From: Leucoraja erinacea
Taxonomy: Eukaryota
Length of the DNA: 41,088 nt
Assembly: GCF_028641065.1 (NCBI RefSeq)
Contig: NC_073390.1
Span: forward strand, 54,892,913 to 54,934,000
Direction of reading: 5' to 3'
The notes beneath the pieces were generated by a model. That model ran no database searches, was not told the DNA's origin, and saw nothing but the letters and a program-made list of their open reading frames with translations. This document shows, in pieces, positions 499 to 41,088 of this stretch (position 1 is its first letter; each line of letters starts with the position of its first letter). The translations under genes were made by a program, and so were the position numbers.

Positions 499-577
499 AT
501 GACGGAGACGCCGGGAAAGTGCTACGATCCCAATGACAGCACCCTGAAGTTTGTACAGAGAAAGGACGAGATCACAG
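499..577 (+). CDS. RBR-type E3 ubiquitin ligase paralog A, coding exon 1 (gene join 499-577, 2643-2740, 2863-3036, 3514-4028)
   Basis: MTETPGKCYDPNDSTLKFVQRKDEIT(G); aligns with RBR-B exon 1; phase-1 GT donor at 578. Confidence 0.85.
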
Positions 578-1502
578 GTCTCTTTTTAAAACTCATTCGT
601 TGATATATTTTATTTGCAGACGTTTCCTGACCTACCGAGCGTTTCAAGCATCTTCCGTCTGAATGTTTGAATTGGGAAACTAATGGATTTATCAACGCTT
701 TCCTGGGGCGTGGGAGGTGACCCCGTGTGGCCAGTTCGGACGTAGCAAAAACGGTGGAGGGGGGAATGAGATTGGGTTTGTCTGAGATTCCAGCATCAGG
801 GTAGTACCGACTCGGAAGATGACTTTGTCCCCAGGGATGTCATTCATTTTCAACTACCATCCCATATTGGGGACTATTCTATGACTCTCCTGTTCCTTTA
901 CGTTCCAGATAGATTAAGGGGAGAGCGGTGTGTCATTTGCTGCAAATACCCAGTCTCTGGTGCTGGAGCGGCAGTTAATGCATGTGCACGGCCAATCTCT
1001 AGTGTGTAGGATCCCTGCGTTGTCAGGCGCTTGTGTGCTTTGAAAGATCTGCCATTTTTCGGCCCAAATCTAACATTGGTCTAAATCTAACATTTTCTGC
1101 CGAAGGGACATTCTGGTTCGATATGACAGTGTGGAGAGAAAGGGGAACGGCTGGAGGAACTTAGCCTTGTCGAGGCTCTTGGGAGGTTGTCTATTTCCCT
1201 CCACAGACTGCTCACCTTCTCTTGCAGCAGATTCCAGCTTGTGCCGTCTCCATTGCCTCCTCGTTATGTGAGACACTGCCCATAACATTGAGCACGGGTA
1301 AAATATCCATCTGCAAACGTCCCCATTGTTGATCTTATGGGGAAGGACAAGACATTGATGAAGAAGCTGAAGGTAGTTGGAGCAACAGACAATACTCTGA
1401 AACACAATGATATAATTGTTTGAAGGTTTGATGACCAAGGGCTGAGGCAACTGATCACCAATAACCAACTCTCTGTATTTGGTATAGCTTCACCATTTGA
1501 TT

Positions 1503-2143
1503 CATAGTCAGAGTCCTAGGATCATACAGAGTGGAAACAGGCCCTTTGGCCCAACTTACCCACGCCAACCAATATATCGCATCTACACTGGTCCCACGCC
1601 TGCATTTGGCCAATATCCCTCTAAACCGGTCCTATCCATGCACCTGGCTAATTGCTTCTTAAACATAGCAACAATCCCTGCCTCAACCACCTCCTCCAGC
1701 AGTGCAGTCCATACACCCAGAACCCCTTTTTGTGAAAAAGTTACCCTCAGATTCCTATTAAATCTTTTCCCCTTCACCTTAAACCTATGCCCTCTGGTTC
1801 TCGATTCACCTACTCTGGGCAAGAGACTGGCCGGCTAAACTATCTATTCATGATTTTATACACCTCTATAAGATCACCCCTCACCCTCCTGCATTCTAAG
1901 GACTAGAGTCACCGCCGGCTCAATCTCTCCCAAAAGCTCAGACTTGAATCCTGGCAACATCATTGTAAATCTGTTTTGTACCCGTTACAACTTGACAATA
2001 TCTTTCCTCTAACAAGGTGCCCAGAACTGAATACAATCCTCTCAATGCGGTCTCACCAACGTCTTATATAACTGCAACATGACTTCCCAAACTCTATACT
2101 GAACACTCTGCTACACTCCAGACTGATGAGGGCCAATGTGCCA
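1503..2143 (-). mobile_element. CR1-clade LINE 3' fragment in RBR-A intron 1
   Basis: ORF 1583-1822 (ESRTRGHRFKVKG...FSQKGVLGVW) is a CR1 ORF2 C-terminus, followed by the 3' UTR. Confidence 0.85.
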
Positions 2144-2642
2144 ATTGCCCATTGGTTTTTCACAGGGCCACCTTGAGATTCAACTGGGTCAAATAGTGTA
2201 GTTCTCAGCTCCAAGTGTAGTCAGTCTGATCTAGTAATCTACTCCTTGCTATGTGCTGGCACCATATCTATAATGAGGGCTGCAGCTTGTTCTAGATATG
2301 AGCATTGTGTGGCAAAGTGAATGGTCCATGGTATCTCCTTTGCTAGCAATATGGGAGGAACAAGTTAGAAAGGTTGACCTCTTCAAAGTTTGCAGGTGAT
2401 GGATAATGCCAGGGAATGGAAGGGCTGGGTGGGGAGGGTGAGTAGACCAGGAAGTTACACACACAGAGTGATCCCAGCAGAAAGGGGGAGAGAGTTTGCT
2501 GGTTGACTTTGTCCTTCTTTTGTAAACAAGATATATTGGGACAATTCTCTACATTTATGGAGAGTTTACTTTATATTTTTATGTCAGAATTTGCTTGTTA
2601 TAAAAGTTATGCCAGAACTCTAATGAAAGATCTCATTTGTAG

Positions 2643-2740
2643 GTGATGATGACCCAAATGTTCTCAGAGTGGAGATGTCCTGTGGACATGCTGTGGACCC
2701 CACAGCACTGACCGGATGGTGCCGTAGCCTGATAGATCGT
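2643..2740 (+). CDS. RBR paralog A exon 2 (RING1-like N-half)
   Basis: AG at 2641-2642, GTAAGT at 2741; GDDDPNVLRVEMSCGHAVDPTALTGWCRSLIDR; 98 nt, same length as RBR-B exon 2. Confidence 0.9.
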
Positions 2741-2862
2741 GTAAGTATTTCTGGCAATCAGTTTCCATGCACTTTTCATTCATTTTAACTCTTGCATGGC
2801 CTTGCATCGAAGCAAACGTTAACATTGGTATTTTTGTTTGCAACACCCAATACCTATGTTAG

Positions 2863-3036
2863 GGTCATTTCACATTCCACTGCCCTGCTATAAAGGATGG
2901 AACAGAAGGAAAGTGCAACAAGGAATGGCCCTATGTGGAGGTTCGCAGGCATGCGTTGCTGACTGACGATGAACAGAAGTATTTTGAAGAGAAGGTTGCC
3001 TTACTCGCTGCGGCAAAGTACTGTGAATTCAGCACG
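2863..3036 (+). CDS. RBR paralog A exon 3 (RING1-like C-half and linker helix)
   Basis: AG/GT bounded, 174 nt as in RBR-B; GHFTFHCPAIKDGTEGKCNKEWPYVEVRRHALLTDDEQKYFEEKVALLAAAKYCEFST. Confidence 0.9.
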
Positions 3037-3513
3037 GTAATACAGCACCTTATTTATAATAAATGGTAACAAAATTCATAACAGGAATTGAGAAAATCCA
3101 AATTGGCAAGATGGAAATGGGCATAGGCAATCACAAGTACATATTTGCAAGAAGCAGAATTAGGCCATTCGGCCCATCAAGTCCACACCGCCATTCAACC
3201 ATGGCTAATCTATGTTTCCCTCTCAACCCCATTCTCCTATATAGTTTCAGTAGGAGGGAACTGAAGATACTGGTATGCACTGAAGATAGACTGAAAATGA
3301 TAGAGTAATTCAACTGGACAGGCAGCACGTCTGGATAGAAAGAGTGGATGATGTTTCTACCTGAAACCTCACCTAGTCCTATCCAGAAATGCTGCCTGTC
3401 CCACTGAGTTACTCCAGCATTTTGTGACTATCTTTGGTTTAAACCAGCATCTGCAGTTCCTTCCTATACATATTTTATTTCAGTGTTGAAGTCATTGTTC
3501 TGTCTTTCTTCAG

Positions 3514-4028
3514 TGCCCTGGATGCCAGACTTGTGTCGAGCGAAAAGATCTGACAAATCTTTCAGTGAGATGTTCCATTTGTACAGCGCAAAATGGAAGA
3601 TGCTATGAATTTTGCTGGCAATGTTCGAAGGAATGGAAGGGCCAAGCACCCCCCGTTCTGATCGATGCGACAATGAAGGATGCACAAACATTCAGCTGGA
3701 CGCCCTTAAGAAATGTGACATGAAAACTTTATTTTACAGTAAAATCCAATGCCCTAAATTCCGCGCTTGTCCCACATGTGGGATTACTATAGAGCATAAA
3801 GAAATGTGCAAGTATATCCTGTGCTCCAGGTGTCATGTGGAGTTTTGCTTTGCTTGTCTTAAGACCAAAGCAGTTTGTGAAAGATCATCTGACTTTTCTG
3901 CTACTTGTGCTAATCCCGTGGCCCCGAGGCAAACAAGTATTCCCACGTGGACTCGCACTACAAATGTTACTCATCAATCACCAATACCAACCACCAATAA
4001 TGAGAATTCATGGTGCACAATTTTATAA
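3514..4028 (+). CDS. RBR paralog A exon 4 (IBR + RING2 + CaaX tail); frameshift at 3649-3654 (assembly error or pseudogene)
   Basis: CPGCQTCVERKDLTNLSVRCSIC...FCWQCSKEWKG in the spliced frame, then PRSDRCDNEGC...CPTCGITIEHKEMCKYILCSRCHVEFCFAC...CTIL* in another frame; the unshifted frame stops at TGA 3721-3723. Confidence 0.85.
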
Positions 4029-13035: not shown

Positions 13036-13497
13036 TTAGTCATATCTATGCCATGTTGGGATTGCAGTTTGCCTTGGACTAATGCCTTTGGCACAGACAT
13101 CAAACCACGACTCGGGTCTTTGTGCCTGGCATATGGGAGTCAGCTCGAGACAGGCAAAGCAAAATTCAACATGACACCTACAACAGATAATATTTTTACA
13201 TCCCCTCTGGTTGTGTTCAAGCAGCTTGCCACACGTCGGACAGGCTCGAATAGAAGGGCAATTCTTCACCACAGTCTCTACGAGGCTGACTAATGGACAG
13301 GTGCGGAGGATTTCCAATTCCATGTTGGTGCAGCCATCGTTGTTGCATCGATCAGAACGTGGACCCGGTCCCTTCCACTGTTTCAGGCACTGCCAGCAGA
13401 ACTCATAAACATGGCCTTTCTCTGCTGTACAGATGGTGCAGCGGACATTCAGGTTACTCAGATCTGTGCGTTCAACAAATGTTTGACAGCCAGGACA
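13036..13497 (-). CDS. RBR-type E3 ubiquitin ligase paralog B, exon 4 (IBR + RING2); gene join complement(13036-13497, 15302-15475, 19258-19355, 22176-22242), 266 aa
   Basis: CPGCQTFVERTDLSNLNVRCTIC...FCWQCLKQWKG...CPTCGKLLEHNQRGCKNIICCRCHVEFCFAC...PTWHRYD*; CAG acceptor at 13500-13498. Confidence 0.93.
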   Translation of the reverse strand, partial: CPGCQTFVERTDLSNLNVRCTICTAEKGHVYEFCWQCLKQWKGPGPRSDRCNNDGCTNMELEILRTCPLVSLVETVVKNCPSIRACPTCGKLLEHNQRGCKNIICCRCHVEFCFACLELTPICQAQRPESWFDVCAKGISPRQTAIPTWHRYD

Positions 13498-13729
13498 CTG
13501 TTGATAACAGACCATAATAAACAATTTGCAAAGTAAATTATATCCCAGAGATAACCCTTTTTAAGAAGGGTACCGACCTGAAACATCACCTATCCATGTT
13601 CTCCAGAGAACCCACTGGTTCACCAGCTAATTCCTTGCATCTCCTAAACCCTTTTTAAGCATGCACCTAAACATGTGCTGCAATTGCTACAGACCACCAT
13701 ACCAATCTAGTCTAGTTTAGTTTAGCGAT

Positions 13730-14035
13730 AGAGAACAGAAACAGGCCCTTCGGCCCATGCCACCCATCAGTAATTCTGTAAATTACCCCTAGTGTGTAGA
13801 ATAGAATAGAACTAGTGTGTGGGTGATTTGGGGCACGATAGGAACAATTTATATTTTTTACCAAAGCCAATTAACCTACAAACCCGTACGTCTTTGCAGT
13901 GTGGGAGTGAACCGGAGCACCCAGGGAAAACCCACGCGGTCACGGGGAGAACGTGCAAACTCCACACAGACAGCACCCGCAGGATCATATCTGGGTCTCT
14001 AACGCTGTAAGTAGCAACTCTACCTCTGTGTCACC
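13730..14035 (-). mobile_element. V-SINE (HE1-like)
   Basis: Reverse complement of the SINE seen at 32065-32368. Confidence 0.8.
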
Positions 14036-14108
14036 ATATAATTGTGATTAAGGAATGTAATACAGACACAACCATGGGAGTACAGAACAGTTATCCTTAT
14101 TTTCAGTA

Positions 14109-15258
14109 CAGGTGCACAACCTTTTATCCGAAGTTCCAGAAACCGAAAAGCTCCGAAAACCGGCCATTTTTTCCAGATGTCGTCTGCGCACCAAAGCTCG
14201 CGTTTGGCGCCAAACTTGACCCAAAACGACCCACGGTCAACCCAGGTCTGTACCAAAGATCCTCTAGGAGGTCTGTACTACTGTAGCGGCTGCCTCCTCC
14301 CTGGAGACCGGGAGACGCTTAAACATCTGTAAATCATTGCCTAAATGTTAGTTAGTTAGTTTGGAGGGCTTTTATGTGAAGGGGGGTGAAGGGGTAAACT
14401 TTAATTCTTAGTCCCCTACCTGGTCGGAGAGGCGGGGAGTGGTCAATGCCTTACCGGGTCGCTGTGCAGTAAGCTCCGCAGCGCTGTGGCCGGTGGGGCC
14501 GCGGGCGGCACCGGTTGTAGCTCCGACCCCGGCAACTCTACCCCTGGCTGCGAGGCGCTCCAAATCCAGCGCGGCCCGCGGCCGGACGCCCCAGCTCCGC
14601 GAATGTCGGGAGTCGGCGGCATCGCAGTGCTGGGATACCAGCGGGGAGCGGGCAATGCCTTACCGGGTCGCCGTGCGGCAAGCTCCGGAGCGCTGTGGCC
14701 GCCGACACACAACATCGCGGAGCGTCGCTGGATTTGGAGCCGCGGAGCTGGGGGCTCCGTCCGGCCGCGGGCGGCGCCGGTTGGAGCTCCGACCCCGGCA
14801 ACTCTACCCCTGGCTCTATCCCAGCACTGCGACGCCGCCGACTCCCGACATTCTCGGAGCTGGGACGTCCGGCCGCGGGCGGCGCTGGATTTGGAGCGCC
14901 TCGCAGTCAGTGGTAGAGTTGCCGGGGTCGGAGCTACAACCGGCGCCGCCCGCGGCCGGACGGAGCCCCCAGCTCCGCGAGGTTGGGAGTCGCCGACCAG
15001 GTAGGGGACTAAGAATTAAAGTTTCCCCCTTCACCCCTACTCCACCACCACCACATAAAATCCCTCCAAACTAACTGACTAACATTTATGCAATGATTCT
15101 CCCGGTCTCCGGGGGGGAGGCAGCTGCTCCAGACTTTTCAAGCCGCCCGCGCTACCTACCTAATCTACGCTAAAAATCTTCCATTCTGAAATCCGAAAAT
15201 GTCCGAAATCCGACAAGTGTCTGGTCCCAAGGCTTTCGGATAAAAGGTTGTGCACCTG
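14109..15258. mobile_element. Non-autonomous Tc1/mariner-pogo type MITE with internal fold-back
   Basis: 24-bp TIR CAGGTGCACAACCTTTTATCCGAA at both ends; TA duplications at 14107-14108 and 15259-15260; internal inverted arms ~14285-14605 / ~14868-15127; no transposase. Confidence 0.88.
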
Positions 15259-15301
15259 TAATGTACTGTCCGGAACTAATGTTTCTAATTGTTATACGTA
15301 C

Positions 15302-15475
15302 TGATTTATATTCACAATACTCAGCAGCAGCCAACACAGCGACTGTTTCCTCAAAATGTCGCTGCTCCTCACTGGTCAGCACTGCCAGTTGGCGAACTTC
15401 ATGGTAGGACCACTCCTGTCCACAGTTCTCTGTCGTTCCATTTTTCAGCGCTGGGCAGTAAAACTTGTACTGACC
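15302..15475 (-). CDS. RBR paralog B exon 3
   Basis: GQYKFYCPALKNGTTENCGQEWSYHEVRQLAVLTSEEQRHFEETVAVLAAAEYCEYKS; 174 nt, AG / GTACGT bounded. Confidence 0.92.
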
Positions 15476-15619
15476 CTGTAATTTCAAATTTGGTTAAAAC
15501 TCATTCATCAAACTTGCCTTCTCTCTCTGTAATGAGATGGGCAGAGGCAACATCTTCATGCAACCAAACTCAATAGACAATAGGTACAGGAGTAGGCCAT
15601 TCGGCCCATCCCGAGTAGC

Positions 15620-16150
15620 CTCTCTCAAAGTACTCTCTATGCCCACTTACCCTTCTCCCAACTTCCTGCTGTGGAGCTCATTTCTCACTGAGTCCCAAAG
15701 TCTTTACTGAGTGCTGAATTCACACAGTTTCCAACATTCTCACTGATCACCCTAATTTCATTCAATACCAACTCCATCCCTCAATGCATTAATTCTCTGC
15801 TCAACACCAAACTCCTCCCCCCCCCCCCCCCAAATATCAAACTCCCCCAGGGAGTGGCCAACTCCCTCATTCAATCCCCGTGGCATTAAGTAACTAAGTC
15901 CTCAACACCCATAATTAGTGCCTGATTCTCACAGATTTCTGCTCCATCAGTTAATTTCTCTGCTCTGTCACACAATGCTCAATTCTCACACAGTGCCCCA
16001 ACCCCTCACTGAATGGCCAGCTCACATTTAGTGCCCAATTCTCATTTGGAGCCCAACTTGCTCACTCAATGTCTAGTTCTGGCTCAATGACAATCTCCCT
16101 GCTTGAATGGTGAATTCTCTCAATGCCCAGCATTTAATACTGAATGGCCA
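15620..16150. repeat. Degenerate ~20-bp minisatellite-like tract (also ~20580-20715 and ~21190-21310)
   Basis: Recurrent variants of tgcccaactccctcactcaa. Confidence 0.5.
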
Positions 16151-17081
16151 GTCCAGTGCATGGAAGGTTCACTGGACTGGTTCCACATGAAGAGGGATTA
16201 AACAAACCAGCGTTATATTCACTTGACCTTAGAAGAATGAGCGAGGATTTAGTTTGCAACCAGGTTGGTTCACTTGTAGTTAAGCATGGGGAGGAAATGC
16301 TAATGATACTGTAAATGGTTTTATCCCAAGGATGAGTTTTTAAATGTTTATTAGAAACATAGAAACATAGAAAAATAGGTGCAGGAGTAAGTCATTTGGC
16401 CCATTGAGCTAGAACCGCCATTCAATATGATCATGGCTGATCATCTAAAATCAGTACCCCGTTCCTGCTTTTTCCCCATATCCCTTGATTTCATAAGCCC
16501 TAAGAGCTAAATCTAACTCCCTCTTGAAAACATCCAGTGAATTGGCTTCCACTGCCTTCTGTGGCAGAGAATTCCACAGATTCAAAACTCTCTGGGTGAA
16601 AAAGTGTTTCATCATCTCAGTCCTAAATGGCCCAGCCCTTATTCTTAAACGGTGACCCCTGGTTCAGAACTCCCCCAACATCGAGACCATTTTTCCTGCG
16701 TCTAGCCTGTCCAAACCTTTAAGAATTTTCTATAAGATCGCCTATCATCCTTTTAAATTCCAGTGAATTCAAGCCCATTCGACCCATTATGCCAGTCCTG
16801 CAATCCCGGGAATTAACCTGGTGAATCTACACTGCACTCCCTCACTAACAATAAAGTCCCTTCTCAAATTAGGAGACCAAAATTGCACGCAATACTCCAG
16901 GTGCAATTTCACCAGGGCCCTGTACAACTGCAGTAGGACCTCCTTGCTCCTAAACTATATTCTCTCGCAATGAACGCGACATGCCATTCACTTTCTTCAC
17001 TGCCTGCTGTACCTACATGCGTACTTTCAGTGACTGATGTGCAAGTACATCCAGATCTTGTTGCACTTCCCCGTTTCCTAA

Positions 17082-17900
17082 AGTGGCGGAAGTGTGGGCG
17101 CTGTTGAACGGATGCGGATCGCCTGCAGTCCGTCTGTCTTTACTTTTTTGTTGTTGTTTTTTTTGTCTTGTTTAGTTAAACTTTAGTTTATTAGGTTGTT
17201 TATGTGTTATGGGGGGGGGGGGGGGGGGGGGGGGGGCTTAAACATGGTTTTCTGTCTCTCCCTTCGGGGGAATGCGACTCTTCTGTTGTATCTCCCTTCT
17301 CTACCCCCGTCTGCTCTGAGGCCTAATGGCGGAGCTGGCGGCCTCCAACCTGCGACCGACCTCGAAGCTCTGGAGGCAGAGCCAGCCGGGACTCACCAAC
17401 GCGAGGCTGGCCGTCTTCGAGCTGAGGCGGCGTTCCAGCGGCGGCGACCTGAATCCGAGGCTCGGCCGCGGGCCAGTGGACAACATCGTCGGGAGCTCGC
17501 AGGTCACAGGCTGGTGCCTGTTTTCCGGAGCTCCCGCGGCAACAGCTGCGTCCACTGGACTGGAGGGCGGCAGCTTCGACCACCCCCGGGCCGCGGAGCT
17601 TGAACCGGCCCGTTCTCGGACCTCGGTGAGCCGCGGGACTGATTTACCATCGCCCGGTGGGGTAACAACATATCGCCTCAGCGCAGAGGGAGAATGAGGA
17701 GGGAAGAGACAGTAACTTTAAGACTTTTGCCTCCATCACAGTGAGGAGGTGCCTGGTGAACTCACTGTGGTGGATGTTAATTTGTGTTTATTGTGTGTTT
17801 TATTATTTATTATTATATGTATGGCTGCAGGCAACGACATTTCGTTCAGACCGAAAGGTCTGAATGACAAATAAAGGATCTAATCTAATCTAAATCTAAT
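17082..17900 (+). mobile_element. Non-autonomous GC-rich non-LTR retroelement with 3' stem-loop and (tctaa)n tail
   Basis: Same architecture and shared 5'/3' motifs as 36241-37097 and ~22730-23040(-). Confidence 0.65.
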
Positions 17901-17964
17901 CTGACACCATTCAGATTATAATCTTCCCACCAAAGTGGATAACCTTACATTTATCCACATTATA

Positions 17965-18782
17965 ATGTGGATAAATGTTTATCCACTTTGGTGGCAAAAA
18001 CAGGAAAGTAGATTATTATCTGAATGGTGGCCAATTAGGAAAGGGGGAGATGCAACGAGACCTGGGTGTCATGGTACACCAGTCATTGAAAGTAGGCATG
18101 CAGGTGCAGCAGGCAGTGAAGAAAGCGAATGGTATGTTAGCATTCATAGCAAAAGGATTTGAGTATAGGAGCAGGGAGGTTCCACTGCAGTTGTACAGGG
18201 TCTTGGTGAGACCACACCTGGAGTATTGCGTGCAGTTTTGGTCTCCTAATCTGAGGAAAGACATTCTTCCCATAGAGGGAGTACAGAGAAGGTTCACCAG
18301 TCTGATTCCTGGGATGTCAGGACTTTCATATGAAGAAAGACTGGATAGACTCGGTTTGTACTCGCTAGAATTTAGAAGATTGAGGGGGGATCTTATAGAA
18401 ACTTACAAAATTCTTAAGGGGTTGGACAGGCTAGATGCAGGAAGATTGTTCCCGATGTTGGGGAAGTCCAGAACAAGAGGTCACAGTTTAAGGATAAGGG
18501 GGAAATCTTTTAGGACTGAGATGAGGAAAACTTTTTTCACACAGAGAGTGGTGAATCTGTGGAATTCTCTGCCGCAGAAGGTAGTTGAGGCCAGTTCATT
18601 GGCTATATTTAAGAGGGAGTTAGATGTGGCCCTTGTGGCTAAAGGGATCAGGGGGTATGGAGAGAAGGCAGGTACAGGATACTGAGTTGGATGATCAGCC
18701 ATGATCATATTGAATGGCGGTGCAGGATTGAAGGGCTGAATGGCCTACTCCTGCAACTATTTTCTATGTTTCTATGTTTCTA
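17965..18782 (+). mobile_element. Young CR1 (HER1-like) LINE, 5'-truncated, ORF2 C-terminus open
   Basis: 236-aa ORF with LYRVLVRPHLEYCVQFWSP...RRLRGDLIETYK...FFTQRVVNLWNSLP; (tttctatg)n tail. Confidence 0.93.
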
Positions 18783-19257
18783 TTATACTGCACCTGCCAT
18801 GCATCTGCCCACTCACCCAACCTATCCAAGTCACCCTTCAGCCTCATAGCATCCTCCTCGCAGCTCACAATGCCACTCAGCTTTGTGTCATCAGCAAACG
18901 TGGAGATGTTACTTTTAATTTAATTCCCTCGTCTAAATCGTTAATATATATTGTAAATATCTGGGGTCCCAGCACCGAACCTTGCGGCACCCCACTAGTC
19001 ACTGCACAATTCTCTCCACAATTCCTGCAACTGAACCCAATGTAACAAATAAATGATGGCCAGGTACTTCCTTGGTGGGGTCACTAATGCGACCTTTCAC
19101 CTGACATTGGAGGAGGAGGGTGAATCGTTTGGAAACAGACTTTTCCTGACAAAATGTAAAATCAAACAATCAATGTTAATCAAGTAGCAGTGCAGCAGAA
19201 AGAGATATTTTTACACAGTTATGTGGCTCTATTAAATCAACAGAGCTCACTTCCTAC

Positions 19258-19355
19258 CCGATCCAGGAGACTGCGACACCACTGGGTCAGTGAGTTGGGG
19301 TCCACTGCATGCGTGCACGACATTTCAGCTCGCAAAATGTTGGGATCATCATCTC
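19258..19355 (-). CDS. RBR paralog B exon 2
   Basis: GDDDPNILRAEMSCTHAVDPNSLTQWCRSLLDR; 98 nt, CAG acceptor, GTAGGA donor. Confidence 0.92.
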
Positions 19356-19664
19356 CTGAAATTATAAGTTATACAGTCCTTTTAGTACAGTGCAAAATAA
19401 ATAACTAGTTGCCCAATACTTGTACTTAAGGTCCAGGTTAGGAAACAAAACATAATCCTTGGTCTGGAGTGTTAAGTACTGGAGTCAGATACTTAAATAA
19501 CCATCGAGAAACCATCAGGTAAAACCAACGTGCCTGTAATCATGGTTTCAGAGGGGGAAAGGAAGAGAGAATGCTCACACTACCACCAGGGCTTTTATAC
19601 TAAGCAAGCCCCCTTTGGTGGCTACCGGTATTACAATAGGTGTATGATATATCTTAAAGGGGCA

Positions 19665-20003
19665 TACATAGAAACATAGAAACATAGAAATTAGATGCAG
19701 GAGTAGGCCATTCGGCCCTTCGAGCCTGCACCGCCATTCAATATGATCATGGCTGATCATCCAACTCAGTATCCCGTACCTGCCTTCTCTCCATACCCCC
19801 TGATCCCCTTAGCCACAAGGGCCACATCTAACTCCCTCCGAAATATAGCCAATGAACTGGCCTCAACTACCCTCTGTGGCAGAGAGTTCCAGAGATTCAC
19901 CACTCTCTGCGTGAAAAAAGTTCTTCTCATCTCGGTTTTAAAGGATTTCCCCTTTATCCTTAAGCTGTGACCCCTTGTCCTGGACTTCCCCAACATCGGG
20001 AAC
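19665..20003 (-). mobile_element. Young CR1 LINE 3' fragment
   Basis: FPMLGKSRTRGHSLRIKG...GYGEKAGTGY; near-identical to the other young copies. Confidence 0.9.
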
Positions 20004-20109
20004 AATACACCACATGGAGGTTGTTAATGTTCTTGTTAATCAAAATTTTAAATTTGACATGAGGACCAAAGCCACAAATGGATTTTGTCTTTTCAATTTA
20101 GTTTGGCCG

Positions 20110-20520
20110 GTTAAGTCTATTCGGCCCTTCAATCATGGCTGGTCTATCTTTCTCTCTCAACCCCATTCTCCTGCCTTCTCCCCATGACCTTTGACACCAT
20201 TACTTATCAAGAATCTGTCAAACTCCGCTTTAAAAATACTAATTTACTTGGTCTCCGCAGCATCTATGGCAATGAACTCCACAGATTCACCACCCTGACT
20301 AAAGAAATTCCTGCTCATCTCCTGTCTATAGGCATGTCCTTTTATTCTGAGGCTGTGCCCTCTGATCCTAGACTCTCCCATTAGTGGAAACATCCTCTCC
20401 ACATCCACTCTAACCACGCCTTTCATTATTCGGTAAGTTTCTATGAGGTCCCCCTTTTCACCCTCCTAAACTCCAGCGAGCCCAGGCCCAAAGCCATCAA
20501 ATACTCATCATATGTTAACC
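20110..20520 (-). mobile_element. Older CR1 LINE fragment
   Basis: VDVERMFPLMGESRIRGHSLRIKG. Confidence 0.8.
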
Positions 20521-20715
20521 TCTGGGGTGGAATGTAGTGTTTGAGATAGTGTTAACAGAATTGGGTTTGAAAATCCTCCAGAAACTCTCCGCACTCACAG
20601 CTCACTTCTCACGGTGCCCAACTCCCGCACTCAATACCCAAATCTCACTCAATGCCAAACTCCATCTGTTGAATCTCTACTCCTCCACCTATCAGCAAAC
20701 ACCCTCACTCAATGA

Positions 20716-21190
20716 CCTGGGATGTCAGGACTGTATTATGAAGAAAGATTGGATAGACTTGGTTTATACTCTCTAGAATTTAGGAGATTGAGAGGGGATC
20801 TTATAGCAACTTACAAAATTCTTAAGGGGTTGGACAGGCTAGATGCAGGAAGATTGTTCCCGATGTTGGGGAAGTCCAGGACAAGGGGTCACAGCTTAAG
20901 GATAAGGGGGAAATCCTTTGAAACCGAGATGAGAAGAACTTTTTTCACACAGAGAGTGGTGAATCTCTGGAACTCTCTGCCACAGAGGGTAGTTGAGGCC
21001 AGTTCATTGGTTATATTTAAGAGGGAGTTAGATGTGGCCCTTGTGGCTAAGGGGATCAGGGGGTATGGAGAGAAGGCAAGTACGGGATACTGAGTTGGAT
21101 GATCAGCCATGATCATATTGAATGGCGGTGCAGGCTCGAAGGGCCAAATGGCCTACTCCTGCACCTAATTTCTATGTTTCTATGTTTCTA
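20716..21190 (+). mobile_element. Young CR1 LINE 3' fragment
   Basis: ORF 20722-21093 is a CR1 ORF2 C-terminus, followed by the tail. Confidence 0.9.
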
Positions 21191-21312
21191 AAATCCCCCA
21201 GGCACTGTCTAACTCCCTCACTCAATGCCTGGGGTTATTCAGTGCACAATTCCCACACCCAGTACTCACACTCAGCTCCCGGTCTCCCTGCTCTTTCACT
21301 CATTTTGAGTGA

Positions 21313-21540
21313 ACATAGAAACATAGAAATTAGGTGCAGGAGTAGGATATTCGGCCCAACGAACTGGCCTCAACTACCCTCTGTGCCAGATAATTCCACA
21401 GATTTCCCCTTATCCTTAAACTGTGACCCTTTGTTCTGGACTTCCCCAACATCAGGAACAATCTTCCTGCATCTAGCCTGTCCAACCCCTTAAGAATTTT
21501 GTAAGATTCTATAAGATCCCGCCTCAATCTTCTAAATTCT
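21313..21540 (-). mobile_element. Internally deleted CR1 3' fragment
   Basis: EFRRLRRDLIESYKILKG... joined with deletions to the tail. Confidence 0.8.
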
Positions 21541-22175
21541 GGAAACCAGGAATGAAAGGCCAATGTTTTGAACATCCCTCTGTAGAGTTTGGACCAACGA
21601 CACATTATCTGCGCACGTTTTTTTTTACTTTAATCAATGTTTGTGTATTCGTTGTAAAAAGTATCACAGATGAGAATAAAGCCAGCAAGTGGGTCAGTTT
21701 GATTGTCTAAGTGTCGGGTCTTAACTCACTTCAGGTGAAGCCGGTCCCAGTGGAGCAGCTCACTTTTCCCCACTCCTGCAACCAGAGCCTCCAGAAATGA
21801 AACCTGTTTCTCCCACGTCTCTCCCCCCCGAGGCTGGGATCTTGTTCAGGGATCACTACATATTTAGCACTGCTTCTTTGAAACTTTAGCCCGTGAGAAA
21901 AGTATGAATTCCCCATGTACACCATCCCCTGTCATTGCTACATTCACTTTCACTTTTACATTCATTATGTATACGGCTAAACTATACTTAGTCATGTTAC
22001 ACGTTTTAAAACTCAACTCCAAATCTTAGCCTAGCAATAAACAAAATGTATCATGTATCATCTATAAATCTGTTTATTCCAGTTAAAAAATAAAGGTCAC
22101 GATTTAAGTCCTGCAGTAAATCCAGCAGTTGGTTCAACACCTCAAAATACCTCCTGTAATAACATTTTGACTTAC

Positions 22176-22242
22176 CTGTGATTTCATCTTTACTTTTCAC
22201 AAATTTCAGAGTGCGATCTTTGGGGTCGTAGCGTTTCTCCAT
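22176..22242 (-). CDS. RBR paralog B coding exon 1
   Basis: MEKRYDPKDRTLKFVKSKDEIT(G); phase-1 GTAAGT donor; aligns with RBR-A exon 1. Confidence 0.9.
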
Positions 22243-27627: not shown

Positions 27628-27633
27628 TTTATT
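27628..27633 (-). terminator. Candidate polyadenylation signal of the UBL gene
   Basis: AATAAA on the minus strand ~400 nt after the stop, in an AT-rich UTR with several ATTTA motifs. Confidence 0.5.
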
Positions 27634-28028
27634 GGTAATAAGATAGGGAATTAAAATTAATGTACAGAAACATATTATGTGAACTTTAATGTTTGCAATA
27701 ACTGAAAGAGTCATAAAGGTACATTCATATTAAAATCAACCAACCAAGTGCTGGAAATAATCCGAGCTATTAGAGACCAGACTGAAATAACCAATTATAT
27801 ACAGGTTTCCTATTTGAAAATTATAGATCAAATTGATGGTTTACTCATTACATGTTAAATAACTTCCATATTAAATGCCACTAGAGATATTTTTAAATCA
27901 TTTTTAAAGGATAAAAGAGTAAAGATATGAAACCCATTTTGCATTCTGTATCAACAACATTGAGGAGAGAGTTTTCATTAATATCGAGACGGCAGATCTT
28001 GGCAACAGCTTCAGTTTTCTTTACAATA

Positions 28029-28165
28029 TTAGCAACATTTTCCTCCTCCAGGCAGACGCAACACCATCATTATTGTGGATTTATCCATGACCTTATAATC
28101 CGAGAGCCTTTTATCATCTTCCAGTTGTTCATTGGCAAAAAGAAGGCGGAGATCGTCTGCTTGAA
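28029..28165 (-). CDS. Single-domain ubiquitin-like protein, exon 2 (gene join complement(28029-28165, 31436-31580), 93 aa)
   Basis: VQADDLRLLFANEQLEDDKRLSDYKVMDKSTIMMVLRLPGGGKCC* aligns with ubiquitin [37 protein letters not shown]; polypyrimidine tract + TAG acceptor; phase 1. Confidence 0.92.
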
Positions 28166-28204
28166 CTAAACCAAAAGCAAAAGCGAGATAGTGAGAGGAA
28201 TACA

Positions 28205-28470
28205 AACGCAACTGGTGCAGCTGGCAGCATTGAGGCCCTGCAATGCCGCAGACCATGGGTTCGATCCTGACCTTGGTGCTCTCTGAGTGGAGTTTGCACG
28301 TTCTCCCTGTGACCACATCCCAAAGGCGTGTGGGTTTGTAAAATTGCCCCAAGTGTGTAAAGCGTGGGTGAGAAAGTGGGATAACACAGAACTGGTGTTA
28401 ATGGGTCAATGGTCAGCATGGACTCATTGGGTCAAAGGAACTGTTTCAATGCTGGATCACTGAATTAACA
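28205..28470 (+). mobile_element. V-SINE in the UBL intron
   Basis: gggttcgatcctgacc...ggagtttgcacgttctccctgtgacc. Confidence 0.75.
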
Positions 28471-28749
28471 TAATTCCCAAGATTGAACAAAGCCTAACGA
28501 CTTCAAGAAAGTGTAATACATTTCTGATGTAATACAATCAGGTATGGAACTATCCGACAGAGGAATCTAGAGCGCAACTTTCATTTGTGTCGCCCAGCCA
28601 ATTTTCATCCCATTATGTTCAAGGACTCACTCCTTTGTCTAATTACACTTGCTCTTCAGGAATCTGACAGAGGGATTATATTCTTCAGCATGCTCTTGTT
28701 CAACTTCCTGCTGACATTTTGAAAAAGAGTGGATATTCCTTGACCAGAT

Positions 28750-29456
28750 GTTGTACACCAGTCATTGAAGGTAGGCATGCAGGTGCAGCAGGTAGTGAAG
28801 AAAGCCAATGGTATGTTAGCTTTCATAGCAAAAGGATTTGAGTATAGGAGCAGGGAGGTTCTACTGCAGTTGTACAGGGTCTTGGTGAGACCACACCTGG
28901 AGTATTGCGTACAGTTTTGGTCTCCAAATCTGAGGAAGGACATTATTGCCATAGAGGGAGTGCAGAGAAGGTTCACCAGACTGATTCCTGGGATGTCAGG
29001 ACTGTCTTATGAAGAAAGACTGGATAGACTTGGTTTATACTCTCTAGAATTTAGGAGATTGAGAGGGGATCTTATAGAAACTTACAAAATTCTTAAGGGT
29101 TGGACAGGCTAGATGCAGGAAGATTGCTCCCGATGTTAGGGAAGTCCAGGACAAGGGGTCACAAGCTTAAGGATAAGGGGGAAATCCTTTAAAACCGAGA
29201 TGAGAAGAACTTTTTTCACACAGAGAGTGGTGAATCTCTGGAACTCTCTGCCACAGAGGGTAGTCGAGGCCAGTTCATTGGCTATATTTAAGAGGGAGTT
29301 AGATGTGGCCCTTGTGGCTAAGGGGATCAGGGGGTATGGAAAGAAGGCAGGTATGGAATACTGAGTTGGATGATCAGCCATGATCATATTGAATGGCAGT
29401 GCAGGCTCGAAGGGCCGAATGGCCTACTCCTGCACCTAATTTCTATGTTTCTATGT
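28750..29456 (+). mobile_element. Young CR1 LINE 3' fragment in the UBL intron
   Basis: LYRVLVRPHLEYCVQFWSP ORF with small indels; intact tail. Confidence 0.92.
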
Positions 29457-30002
29457 TTGTTATGCTGTAAAACTCATGATTTAAAAAAGGTTTATTTCAG
29501 AATGAACATTTTGAATCCTGTGGTAGATAAACAGTTTCACTCAAATACTGCGTTACAAATTCTGCTTAGGAAACCTTACCAACTAAGCCACAATTTGCTG
29601 TTTTGTTTTGGCATTAATCAAATGGTGCAAATGTCCTAGTGTTGTTTGTGAAAGGCACAAAAATAGCAAGAACTTTAACTGTGTGGATCACAGATGAGGG
29701 TTGCTTATTTACAGGTGCATCGAAGGTGAGATAATATTATTTGTTTCAGCATGGGGGTTCTTTGTTGATGTGTTTTGCAGGTTTTTGTGATCACCAGAGA
29801 ATAACATGGCAAAGCACAGTGTCATGGAGTCACGGAACTACACGGCTCATCTTGTTTGCACTGTTAGTCAAACACCCAGTCTGAAGAAGGGTCCCGACCT
29901 GATACTTCACCAATCCTTTCTCTCTGGATATGCTGCCTGACCCACTGAGTTACTCCAGCACTTTGTGTCGACCAATTTTTTACTCTATTCCCATACTTAG
30001 GA

Positions 30003-30560
30003 CATGGAACATTGAACAGTATAGCACACAAACAGGCCCTTCAGCCCACATTGTCTGTGCCGATCATAATGCTAAGACCAACTGTTATCTGTTTGTGGAT
30101 AATCCATATCCATCCATATACATGTGTCTGTGCAAAGCCTCTTAAATGCCACTATCGTCTCTGCCTCCATCACCACCCCTTGCAGCACGTTCCAGGCACC
30201 CATCACCCTCTGTGTAAAAAACCTGCCCCACACACCTGCTTTACATTTGCCCTCTCACCATGAAGTTATGCCCTTTAGTATTTGATATTTCTATCCTAGG
30301 AGAAAGTTCTGACTGTCTACCCTATCTATACGCCTCATACTTTTATATACTTCTGTCAGGTTTGCCCACAATCTCCGATGTCAAGAGATAACAATCCAAG
30401 TCTATCCAAACTCTTTTTGTAACTAATACCTTCTAATCTAGGCATCATTCTGGTAAATATCCTCTGCATTCCTTCCAAAGCTTCCAAATGTTTTCTGTAA
30501 TGGGGCAACCAGAACTGCAACACAATATTCTAAACCCAGCCTAGTCACAGTTCTATAGAG
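30003..30560 (-). mobile_element. Older CR1 LINE fragment
   Basis: Antisense CR1 3' region (caccctctgtgtaaaaa, gaccagaactgca-like motifs). Confidence 0.75.
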
Positions 30561-30799
30561 CTCATCCATTTATTTGCATTCCTACATTTCCATCAGCTCC
30601 CTCAAGATTTTTCTGGTCACCCACATACGGCAAAAATCAGCAGCTTTAATATCTTGGAATGATTTTGAAGATAGCAACAGGCGAGAGATATATGTGAGGT
30701 TGTTCTTGTGATGGGAGCAACGAACAGGATGCACTTTTTATAGTCAGTAATTTACATGGCATTGTTTCTGGGAACTATAAAGAATAAGCCCAGTTTTTA

Positions 30800-31010
30800 A
30801 AGATACAGCGCGGAAACAAGATCTATCTTACACAGTACAGGCAATTTACAATTTTTACTGAAGCCAATTAAACGACATGTACTTCTTTGGAGTGTGAGAG
30901 GAAAGCGGACCACCCAGACATCTCCGTGCGGTCACAGGGAGAATGTACACACAGCACCCACCCATATTCAGGATCGAACCCATGTCTGTAGGCAGCAGCT
31001 CTACCAGCCC
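30800..31010 (-). mobile_element. V-SINE, diverged
   Basis: ttggagtgtgagaggaaa...ggtcacagggagaatgtac...caggatcgaaccc. Confidence 0.7.
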
Positions 31011-31435
31011 TAACCATTTATACAGCATTGTTTCAGGAAACTAGCTTAATAAGACCAGTTTGTTCTGTGTAAACTAGGAGCTGTCATGTCTTGTAGCCCA
31101 TTGACATTTCTGCAGATGGGTTTAGATTGTTCAAGAAGGGTCTCGACCCGAAACGTCACCCATTATTTCTCTCCAGAGATGCCGCCTTTCCCGCTGAGAT
31201 ACTCCAGCTTTTTGTGCCTATCTTCAGTTTAAACCAGCATCTGCAGTTCCTTCCTACATATTTAGTTTGTTATGATATCGTTGACATAAGTGGGGGAATT
31301 TTACACCAGTAAAAAACAGCGTTAGAAATCCTGTACAAATGAGACAGATGCTATCCCTCAGAAAACCGTGTAAAACTGCTGGGTTAAACTGGTTTTTAAA
31401 AGTATGAATACATTTCCAACTTATCGCTTAAATAC

Positions 31436-31580
31436 CTGTTCCTTGCGGCAATTTTGTCAACAGTTTCATTTTAAACACCAGAACCGTCGTCTCATTGAAC
31501 TCTTTTTCCGTCTGTGAAATATCAACAGTAGTTGTTTCTCCCTTGAGCCCCTTCACTAACACTTGATAGATTTTTCCCAT
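31436..31580 (-). CDS. Ubiquitin-like protein, coding exon 1
   Basis: MGKIYQVLVKGLKGETTTVDISQTEKEFNETTVLVFKMKLLTKLPQGT resembles ubiquitin MQIFVKTLTGKTITLEV...TIENVKAKI; phase-1 GT donor joins exon 2 in frame (145+137=282 nt). Confidence 0.9.
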
Positions 31581-31656: not shown

Positions 31657-31674
31657 AGTTTCACTTTCAATTTC
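31657..31674 (-). promoter_or_regulatory. Extended ISRE upstream of the UBL gene
   Basis: GAAATTGAAAGTGAAACT: three GAAA cores at 6-nt spacing, 77 bp before ATG 31580; TATAAA at 31692-31687. Confidence 0.8.
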
Positions 31675-38416: not shown

Positions 38417-38428
38417 AGTTTCAGTTTC
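38417..38428 (+). promoter_or_regulatory. ISRE upstream of the putative fourth gene
   Basis: AGTTTCAGTTTC matches AGTTTCNNTTTC, 79 bp before ATG 38507. Confidence 0.65.
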
Positions 38429-38506
38429 GTTTGTGTGGAAACTGTGAGGAGCAGCGAGCGGCCCGGCCTGGCCTGTGTGGCATCGAGTTCCCGTGGGTGC
38501 TGCACC

Positions 38507-38713
38507 ATGTCCTACAGCGACTACGCTTGGATTCGGTCGGAGAGAAGGATCGCTAACCAGTCCAGATCTACAGCCCACGACAGGACCCTGTACTACGACA
38601 GAAGGATTTGGGACACAATCGGCAGCAGCAGCCGAACCCCCTACTCTCGGATCCCGGACAACATCCTTCAACTTCGTCAGGCGAGATCCCACTGGGAAAC
38701 GTATCCAACCGGG
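38507..38713 (+). CDS. Putative first coding exon of an unidentified gene (69 codons)
   Basis: Good Kozak context gcaccATG; CpG-rich non-repeat open frame MSYSDYAWIRSERRIANQ...HWETYPTG; phase-0 GG|GTAATG donor; upstream ISRE. No recognisable domain and no exon 2 identified in the window. Confidence 0.5.
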
Positions 38714-40254: not shown

Positions 40255-40627
40255 CAAGCGAATTGTGGCTGCAGCCCGGACCATCACACAGACCAACCTC
40301 CCCCCAATTGACTCAATTTATATCTCACGCTGTCTCAGCAAGGCCAGCTGCATAATCAAGGATGTCTCCCCCCATGGCCACTCCCTCTTATCCCCTCTCC
40401 CATCAAGCAAAAGGCATGGAAGTGTGAAAACACAAACTACCAGATTCAGCTGTAATCAGGCAACTGAATCACCCAGCCACAGCCAGAGAGCAGTGCTAAA
40501 CCACTCCCTGCCTATTTGGTGACCCTCAGACTATCCTTGATCTGACGTTGCAGGCTTAACTTACACTAAACATTATTCCCTCATCATGTATCTATACACT
40601 GTAAATGGCTCGATTGTAATCATGTAT
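40255..40627 (+). mobile_element. Rex1/Babar-type LINE 3' fragment
   Basis: AARTITQTNLPPIDSIYISRCLSKASCIIKD...HSLLSPLPSSKR resembles the Rex1 RT C-terminus. Confidence 0.75.
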
Positions 40628-41088
40628 TGCCTTTTAAGAAAGGCAGGAGAGATTATAGACTAGTTAGCCTGACATCGGTGGAAGGGAAGATGCTGGAGTC
40701 AATTCTAAAAGATGAAATAGCGGCAATTTTGGATAGCAGTAGCAGGATCGGTCCGAGTCAGCATGGATTTACGAAGGGGAAATCATGTTTGACTAATCTT
40801 CTGGAATTTTTTGTAACAAGGAAAATGGACAAGGGAGAGCCAGTGGATGTAGTGTACCTGGGCTTTCAGAAAGCATTTGATAAGGTTCCACATAGGAGAT
40901 TAGTGGGCAGAATTAGAGCACATGGTATTGGGGGTAGAGTGCTGACATGGATAGAAAATTGGTTGGCAGACGGGAAACAGAGAGTAGGGATTAACCGCTC
41001 CCTTTCAGAATGACAGGCAGTGACTAGTGGGATACCGCAAGGCTCGGTGCTGGGACCACAGCTATTTACAATATACATTAATGATGTA
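40628..41088 (+). mobile_element. CR1 LINE reverse transcriptase fragment (runs off the window)
   Basis: YRLVSLTS...QHGFTKGKSCLTNLLEFF...VDVVYLGFQKAFDKVPH...[10 protein letters not shown]. Confidence 0.93.

What the first reader, a model, noticed from the sequence alone, without database searches (positions are those of the whole stretch)
28029..31580. Single-domain UBL ending LRLPGG followed by a GKCC extension
Seen, by alignment to ubiquitin: R72 and the di-Gly are kept, R74 is Pro, K48 and K63 equivalents are E and D, H68 is M, and there is a ~6-residue insertion after strand 2 (DISQTEKEFNETTV). The di-Gly is masked by GKCC. Known: UBL precursors need a protease to expose GG; terminal CC motifs are geranylgeranylated on Rabs (REP-dependent); UBL3/MUB proteins are lipid-anchored via C-terminal cysteines. 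Inference: a dual-state modifier, membrane-tethered until cleaved, unable to make canonical K48/K63 chains.
Basis: partly seen in the sequence, partly recalled or inferred. Interest (0 to 1): 0.8.

Follow-up and report, generated by a model that had tools for sequence, protein, structure and literature searches.

The report
Overlooked interferon-linked ubiquitin-like modifier cluster
This skate gene encodes a small ubiquitin-like protein whose family sits beside a ubiquitin-ligase gene from sharks to a dugong and beside protease genes in several fishes; it is likely an interferon-induced tag that these enzymes would unmask and attach to other proteins, while its two end cysteines are a recent change and likely no membrane anchor.

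Summary
The gene is real: two exons, spliced in RNA contigs, 93 aa, ubiquitin fold, ending LRLPGG-GKCC. The lipid-anchor idea fails. CC ends 1 of 69 family proteins, and two other species' runs read RRC, so the first Cys is one CpG change. What is conserved is the di-Gly (62 of 62) and Pro74 (56 of 62), ahead of a short tail of free sequence, as in a precursor. The gene belongs to the uncharacterised zgc:194655 family (sharks to turtles and dugong). It lies in a cluster of five UBL, four minimal RBR E3 and four USP genes. It has a tandem ISRE 94 nt upstream, the only stretch shared with a paralogue's promoter. UBL-RBR linkage recurs in about 33 of 40 species. A 2025 salmon paper named the E3 (ARIT) and a 'USP18-like' protease, both interferon- and virus-induced and 160 kb apart, but not the UBL. 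Best reading (0.65): a second interferon-induced ubiquitin-like conjugation pathway beside ISG15, with its own ligase and protease. Cleavage, E1 charging and conjugation are inferred, not shown.

The parts
31657..31674 (-). Tandem interferon-stimulated response element (GAAA-NN-GAAA-NN-GAAACT), 94 nt upstream of the ATG
   Evidence: 1 match in the window, 0 in 100 shuffles; same element at -89 in two paralogues; its core is the only colinear match to a paralogue's 220-nt upstream stretch. The consensus itself is recalled.
31436..31580 (-). UBL exon 1 coding part (M1-T48 plus one base)
   Evidence: RNA contigs reach up to 31632 and 31605
28166..31435 (-). Phase-1 GT-AG intron, repeat-rich
   Evidence: junction in contigs X4 record 5 and X5 record 8
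28029..28165 (-). UBL exon 2 coding part with stop codon
   Evidence: Pfam ubiquitin E 9.9e-9
28044..28061 (-). LRLPGG motif, predicted mature C-terminus
   Evidence: GG in 62 of 62 rows, Pro in 56 of 62
28032..28043 (-). GKCC tail, a non-conserved extension; first Cys from a CpG transition at 28037
27633..28028 (-). 3' UTR with ATTAAA (27690) and AATAAA (27633)
   Evidence: contigs reach 27637 and 27652
13036..22242 (-). Next gene downstream, same strand: minimal RBR E3 of the ARIT / si:ch211-212k18.15 family; exons 22242-22176, 19355-19258, 15475-15302, 13497-13036
   Evidence: fold matches Parkin, ARIH1/2, HOIL-1, RNF216 (model of the Rhinoraja orthologue)
499..4028 (+). Second ARIT copy with a frameshift near 3650 in this assembly, ending CTIL (CaaX-like); ISRE-like element at 321
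   Evidence: RefSeq marks it LOW QUALITY
38417..38713 (+). ISRE (38417-38428) and candidate first coding exon (ATG 38507), likely of the USP18-like gene whose Cys-box exon lies 4 kb past the window end; join not shown
   Evidence: the donor phase does not join the Cys-box exon directly, so this is a lead only

Best explanation
The gene encodes a single-domain ubiquitin-like protein of the zgc:194655 family that lies in a cluster with RBR ligase (ARIT) and USP protease genes, and it is likely an interferon-induced protein modifier that a linked USP would unmask and the linked ligase would attach to targets. Steps: (1) interferon/IRF signalling would switch the gene on through the tandem ISRE (element shown; induction inferred, measured only for ARIT and USP18-like in salmon). 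(2) A cluster USP would cut after LPGG and drop the tail; Pro at position 74 would bias against general deubiquitinases (inferred). (3) An unlinked E1 and E2 would charge it. I favour UBA7 or UBA6 over UBA1, because position 72 drifts to Gln or Lys in turtle and dugong members (inferred, E1 undecided). (4) ARIT would take it on its invariant Rcat cysteine and pass it to target lysines (cysteine shown; transfer inferred). (5) The same USPs would remove it. The GKCC tail is a disposable propeptide with no family-wide role.
For: Di-Gly in 62 of 62 rows. Tails of 1-56 residues, never empty and free in sequence, in 65 of 69 proteins that matched the motif pattern. E1-facing R42 61 of 62 and R72 60 of 62 (roles from PMC12355090 passages). 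The family is one side of a branch against ubiquitin and both ISG15 domains, support 100/99; the skate has two ISG15 copies on another contig. Skate cluster: five UBL and four ARIT genes and four USP genes with Cys and His boxes; three UBLs lie directly upstream of an ARIT in the same orientation. UBL and ARIT share a record of the same length in about 33 of 40 species (counted by eye), with consecutive locus tags or accessions in 6. Gene models merge ARIT with the UBL in dugong and loggerhead turtle and the UBL with a USP in a cyprinid and a sturgeon. ARIT Rcat Cys invariant in 93 of 93, aligned to the ARIH1 active-site position. ISRE results. In salmon ARIT.1 rises log2 13.45 with IFN-gamma, USP18-like log2 4.93, and they lie about 160 kb apart on chr 7 (PMC12234341). 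ARIT persists in alligator and soft-shelled turtle, which lack ISG15 (PMC5381560).
Against: No biochemistry: cleavage, thioester and conjugates are untested. No E1 or E2 match lies on the cluster's contig (0 of 21 ThiF and 0 of 58 E2 matches; best candidates only). Arg74 contacts UBA1, so Pro there may hinder charging. Paralogues in the skate cluster drift at positions 72-74 (KLLGG, RVTGG, DMVGG, SLPGG). ARIT lacks the first CxxC of RING1 and the His that follows the catalytic Cys in ARIH1. Induction of the UBL itself was not measured; the salmon paper does not list it. In 7 of about 40 species the two genes were on records of different length. Same record length shows a shared chromosome, not adjacency.
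Confidence: 0.65

Rival explanations
1. The UBL is interferon-induced and works with ARIT or the USPs but is not conjugated: it binds ARIT as an allosteric activator while ARIT transfers ubiquitin, or it acts as a poorly cleaved decoy for proteases.
For: Pro74 removes an E1 contact; no linked E1 or E2; RBR ligases carry allosteric ubiquitin/UBL sites (recalled; Parkin-phospho-ubiquitin and Parkin-phospho-NEDD8 entries appear).
Against: An invariant di-Gly followed by an unconstrained tail and repeated linkage to active-site-intact USPs fit processing and conjugation better than binding alone.
Confidence: 0.2
2. ARIT and the USP18-like enzymes serve ISG15 or ubiquitin, as the salmon paper leaves open, and the UBL is only a co-regulated neighbour that uses the general machinery.
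For: One cluster USP's His-box exon has USP18 as best solved match (E 5.9e-8); UBA7 is the only E1 induced in salmon; immune genes often cluster without sharing a pathway (recalled).
Against: ARIT is kept in lineages without ISG15; UBL-ARIT pairs were duplicated as units in the skate; linkage spans sharks to a mammal.
Confidence: 0.11
3. One reading: the CC tail is prenylated or acylated, tethering the precursor to membranes until cleavage.
For: The three skate orthologues end in Cys after basic residues (GKCC, GRRC, GRRC); some cyprinids end FQTC; UBL3 shows that a ubiquitin-fold protein can be anchored by C-terminal cysteines (PMC6158211).
Against: CC at the end in 1 of 69; FQTC alternates with FQTS and FQT in close relatives; the first Cys is a single CpG transition; no CaaX; Rab geranylgeranyl transferase needs a REP-bound Rab (recalled).
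Confidence: 0.04

Closest known systems
ISG15 system (ISG15, UBA7, UBE2L6, HERC5/6, USP18)
   Same: Ubiquitin-fold protein with di-Gly, interferon element, an induced E3 and a USP18/USP47-related protease; 33 of 76 identities to the skate ISG15 C-domain.
   Different: One domain, not two; LPGG, not LRGG; RBR rather than HECT ligase; modifier, ligase and protease genes are clustered; ISG15 is a separate locus in the same genome.
ARIT and 'USP18-like' of Grimholt et al. 2025 (PMC12234341)
   Same: ARIT is the neighbouring E3 family: the paper's turtle and alligator rows read as P0191 and P0228 (compared by eye). USP18-like is described as the USP47-like sister clade of USP18.
   Different: In the parts read, the paper does not mention this UBL or the linkage and suggests ISG15 as the possible cargo. 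Placement of each skate USP in that clade was not tested by a tree.
Ubiquitin and NEDD8
   Same: Single beta-grasp domain, closest solved fold and sequence; precursor tail after GG.
   Different: 42% identical to ubiquitin, fast-evolving (47-95% within the family), Pro74, 6-residue insertion, K63 replaced by Asp in 55 of 62.
FAT10 with UBA6
   Same: Cytokine-induced UBL with a non-Arg residue at position 74, charged by a shared E1.
   Different: FAT10 has two domains and ends at GG; this family always carries a tail.
UBL3 / MUB
   Same: Ubiquitin fold with two cysteines near the C-terminus.
   Different: UBL3 has a CaaX box and modifies targets by disulfide, not through glycine; here the cysteines are not conserved and the di-Gly is.

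Membership tests
Conjugatable (type I) ubiquitin-like modifiers | Stand-alone beta-grasp fold | tested here: met
   93-aa spliced product
Conjugatable (type I) ubiquitin-like modifiers | Conserved C-terminal di-Gly, free or exposed by cleavage | tested here: met
   62 of 62; variable tails
Conjugatable (type I) ubiquitin-like modifiers | E1 activation and covalent attachment to targets | not testable with these tools
   needs biochemistry
ISG15 | Two tandem ubiquitin-like domains ending LRLRGG | tested here: not met
   one domain, LRLPGG; true ISG15 copies on contig C25; separate branch
ISG15 | Interferon induction | tested here: inconclusive
   ISRE present and footprinted; no induced samples examined
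UBL3 / MUB | Conserved C-terminal CaaX box | tested here: not met
   residue -4 is Gly; cysteines not conserved; feature
Rab-type CC geranylgeranylation substrates | Rab GTPase domain for REP binding plus conserved terminal CC | tested here: not met
   no GTPase domain; CC in 1 of 69; the REP requirement is recalled
zgc:194655 family | MGKIYQ start, insertion after strand 2, LPGG end, clade with named members | tested here: met
RBR E3 ligases (neighbouring gene) | RING1-IBR-Rcat arrangement with catalytic Cys | tested here: met
   Foldseek hits to Parkin, ARIH1/2, HOIP, HOIL-1, RNF216 (best E 9e-7, low TM of 0.2-0.3); Cys invariant 93 of 93
RBR E3 ligases (neighbouring gene) | Complete C3HC4 RING1 | tested here: not met
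   first CxxC is absent in all 39 aligned rows
USP18 (cluster protease upstream of the UBL) | Orthology to USP18 rather than to the USP47-like sister clade | tested here: inconclusive
   His-box exon best matches USP18, Cys-box exon best matches USP47 then USP18; no whole protein or tree

The most novel reading that the evidence does not exclude
Jawed vertebrates carry a second interferon-induced ubiquitin-like conjugation pathway beside ISG15, encoded as a gene cluster of an LPGG-ended modifier, the ARIT RBR ligase and USP18-related proteases; it runs from sharks through turtles to mammals and was lost on the way to apes and humans, which is why it has gone unseen.
Probability: 0.55. Interest if true: 0.9.

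Novelty: new variant of a known kind. Interest (0 to 1): 0.76.

Why it matters
The list of vertebrate ubiquitin-like modifiers comes from human and mouse. A further modifier with its own ligase and protease, switched on by interferon and kept for over 400 million years, would add a branch to antiviral immunity and give a cargo to the orphan ligase ARIT and the 'USP18-like' proteases. It would be an RBR ligase dedicated to a non-ubiquitin tag, and Pro74 offers a simple handle on how E1s and proteases tell modifiers apart. All parts are small and can be tested in fish cell lines. It also bears on disease resistance in farmed fish and on what apes lost.

Tried and rejected
CC lipid anchor: rejected. 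RefSeq's 144-aa start: disfavoured, since its Met lies upstream of the ISRE, orthologues start at MGKI, and no laid read or contig covers 31689-31800; contigs cannot show a true start. UBL as N-terminal domain of the RBR: rejected for this locus, each skate UBL has its own stop; merged database models are taken as signs of adjacency, though read-through transcripts are not excluded. The USP18-like hit on contig C18 proved to be USP47 by its Cys box. Search for a linked E1 or E2: none on the contig; the E1_UFD search found nothing and its control was silent, so it says nothing. The profile search of 1.84 billion representatives was flooded by polyubiquitins and added no range. Pfam scans covered 150 of 179 and 149 of 280 filtered flanking frames; short exons were missed. 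Earlier scan findings: nothing relevant. Literature searches with no paper on this UBL: LRLPGG, zgc 194655 (20, 21), ch211-212k18.15 (28), G0292642 (29), and term sets; one search gave the salmon paper.

Full report
Observation. The finding's coordinates hold a two-exon gene on the minus strand: 31580-31436 and 28165-28029 give 282 nt, 93 residues and a stop. Contigs from two runs guessed to be RNA carry the junction (X4 record 5, X5 record 8) and a third shows exon-1 letters at it. Basal expression is low: 7 reads on exon 2 among 12.9 million records of one raw run. The product equals RefSeq LOC129703759 of Leucoraja erinacea from its second Met.

The tail. From the 120 listed of 621 hits I kept 69 family proteins and dropped the polyubiquitins. 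In 65 of 69 the motif pattern matched: LRLPGG 56, LRLHGG 4, VRLPGG 2, LRLAGG 2, LRLRGG 1. Tails run 1-56 residues and none is empty; 6 of 65 end in Cys and 1 in CC, this protein. Of the 4 unmatched, three still show GG plus a tail, one of them a lone Cys. Amblyraja and Rhinoraja end GRRC. Runs under two other species labels differ at 28037 and 28039, which reads AGA-CGT-TGC, so the first Cys is one CpG transition from Arg. In cyprinids FQTC alternates with FQTS and FQT. GKCC is not a CaaX box, the feature that anchors UBL3 (PMC6158211, passages). The lipid-anchor reading is therefore not supported. An invariant di-Gly before a free tail is what a processed precursor looks like.

The family. 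It is the family of zebrafish zgc:194655, found in sharks, rays, chimaera, bichirs, sturgeons, bowfin, teleosts, coelacanth and lungfish, in turtles ending QLPGG plus tail and in a dugong model ending KLPGG-A. In 62 aligned rows both glycines are invariant, Pro74 is in 56, R42 in 61, R72 in 60; K48 is Lys in 35 and K63 is Asp in 55 (amniote members not in this alignment). Twenty members form one side of a branch against ubiquitin and both ISG15 domains (100/99; long branches for dugong and turtles; NEDD8 and FAT10 not included). The skate's ISG15 is a separate two-copy locus.

The cluster. Over about 220 kb of contig C14 the order is USP (+, 54.72-54.74 Mb), USP (-), UBL (-), USP (+), ARIT (+), UBL (+), UBL (+), ARIT (+), UBL (+), ARIT (+, frameshifted, in the window), ARIT (-, in the window), this UBL (-), USP (+). 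All five UBLs keep GG, a tail and their own stop. The ligase is a bare RING1-IBR-Rcat protein of about 270 residues: its model (pLDDT 84) hits Parkin, ARIH1/2, HOIP, HOIL-1 and RNF216, and the Cys that aligns with the ARIH1 active-site position is invariant in 93 of 93 rows. Its RING1 lacks the first CxxC and the His after the catalytic Cys is missing. All four USPs have Cys and His boxes and share exons with USP47 on another contig; the one head-to-head with this UBL has USP18 as best solved match for its His-box exon. No E1 or E2 match lies on C14.

Linkage elsewhere. Counted by eye, UBL and ARIT lie on records of the same length in about 33 of 40 species with both. The 7 misses are six cypriniform fishes I recall as polyploid and a turtle copy on a 92-kb scaffold. 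Six species give consecutive locus tags or accessions (Megalops, Aldrovandia, Triplophysa, Phoxinus, Cirrhinus, Onychostoma). Gene models merge ARIT with the UBL in dugong and loggerhead turtle, and the UBL with a USP in Onychostoma and a sturgeon record flagged as unverified.

Interferon link. A tandem ISRE lies 94 nt upstream of the ATG (1 match, 0 in 100 shuffles). Of 5 triple-GAAA matches in 521 kb scanned, 3 are at -89 to -94 of UBL genes and 2 are A-rich runs; one UBL has a near match and one has none. The core is the only colinear match between this promoter and a paralogue's. Single elements sit 180-190 nt upstream of two ARIT copies, none was seen for the ARIT next to this gene. Grimholt et al. 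2025 (PMC12234341; passages, sections 3.2 and 3.6, parts 1-3 of 4 of DataSheet1) name this ligase clade ARIT, find it in teleosts, reptiles and monkeys but not hominoids, and report log2 rises of 13.45 and 11.59 with IFN-gamma. They name a 'USP18-like' clade, also induced. Their table places USP18-like at chr 7 23.86 Mb and ARIT at 24.02 and 24.10 Mb. The UBL motif has 0 hits in that supplement; Table2.xlsx could not be read and may list the gene. ARIT is kept in alligator and soft-shelled turtle, which lack ISG15 (PMC5381560, passages), so ISG15 cannot be its only cargo.

Mechanism. Shown: the gene, fold, di-Gly, free tail, ISRE, neighbours and their catalytic residues. Inferred: induction, cleavage after LPGG by a cluster USP, charging by an unlinked E1 and E2, transfer through ARIT, removal by the USPs. 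Arg42, Arg72 and Arg74 contact UBA1 and Arg72 sets specificity, while UBA6 also takes Tyr at 72 and Ile at 74 in FAT10 (PMC12355090, passages; PMC13572539, passages). With Pro at 74 and Gln or Lys at 72 in amniote members, UBA6 or the interferon-induced UBA7 is more likely than UBA1; this is not settled. I put 0.65 on a dedicated conjugation pathway, 0.2 on a non-conjugated partner, 0.11 on a bystander and 0.04 on the lipid anchor.

Novelty. The genes are in databases under placeholder names, and two were named in 2025. Searches for the motif, both zebrafish names, the Dictyostelium-based label and four term sets found no paper on the UBL or on the three as one system. The zebrafish ISG preprint (10.1101/693333, passages) does not name them in its main text; its tables were closed. 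Subscription journals are not covered, so prior description is not excluded. It works like ISGylation but is not ISG15: a new variant of a known kind, interest 0.76.

Noticed in passing
window 3609-4028 and ARIT homologues: A CaaX-like end occurs on some of the ligases, not on the UBL: CTIL here, C-x-x-x in 11 of 120 hits across sharks, lungfish, amphibians and mammals, CLIL in the monkey rows of PMC12234341. A subset of ARITs may be prenylated.
   Followed up: partly
window about 3650: Frameshift in a C run in the plus-strand ARIT copy; RefSeq marks the model LOW QUALITY. Assembly error or pseudogene not decided.
   Followed up: partly
P0502 and P0508 (Onychostoma): The cluster USP carries a C-terminal AIG1/GIMAP GTPase domain (E 3e-29), another immune module; real fusion or merged model not tested.
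   Followed up: no
L041:4136-4567 (C1529) and L047:565-912 (C1240): Two more divergent ARIT-like exons (37% and 33% identity) on small contigs, with no UBL match in the 30 kb and 50 kb fetched.
   Followed up: partly
L019 and L020 (C25:25.47 Mb): Two tandem ISG15 copies ending LRLRGG directly at the stop.
   Followed up: partly
L067:6510-7472 and L071:508-1946: Flanking genes of the cluster: a single-exon rhodopsin-family receptor on one side and a RhoGEF on the other; usable as synteny anchors to find the human remnant.
   Followed up: no
window 28157-28166: Three in-frame AG acceptors within 10 nt; the contigs use the first.
   Followed up: partly
L028:6883-7080: One skate paralogue has a long Cys-rich tail after MVGG (ECTASEILTCETFVCK), reading through where its neighbours stop.
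   Followed up: no
L005 and L007: Some polyubiquitin repeats of this genome read E where others read D at position 52.
   Followed up: no
window 17975-18685, 20716-21093, 28744-29423, 40570-41013: Many fragments of an abundant LINE-type repeat, one inside the UBL intron; they swamp read mapping.
   Followed up: no
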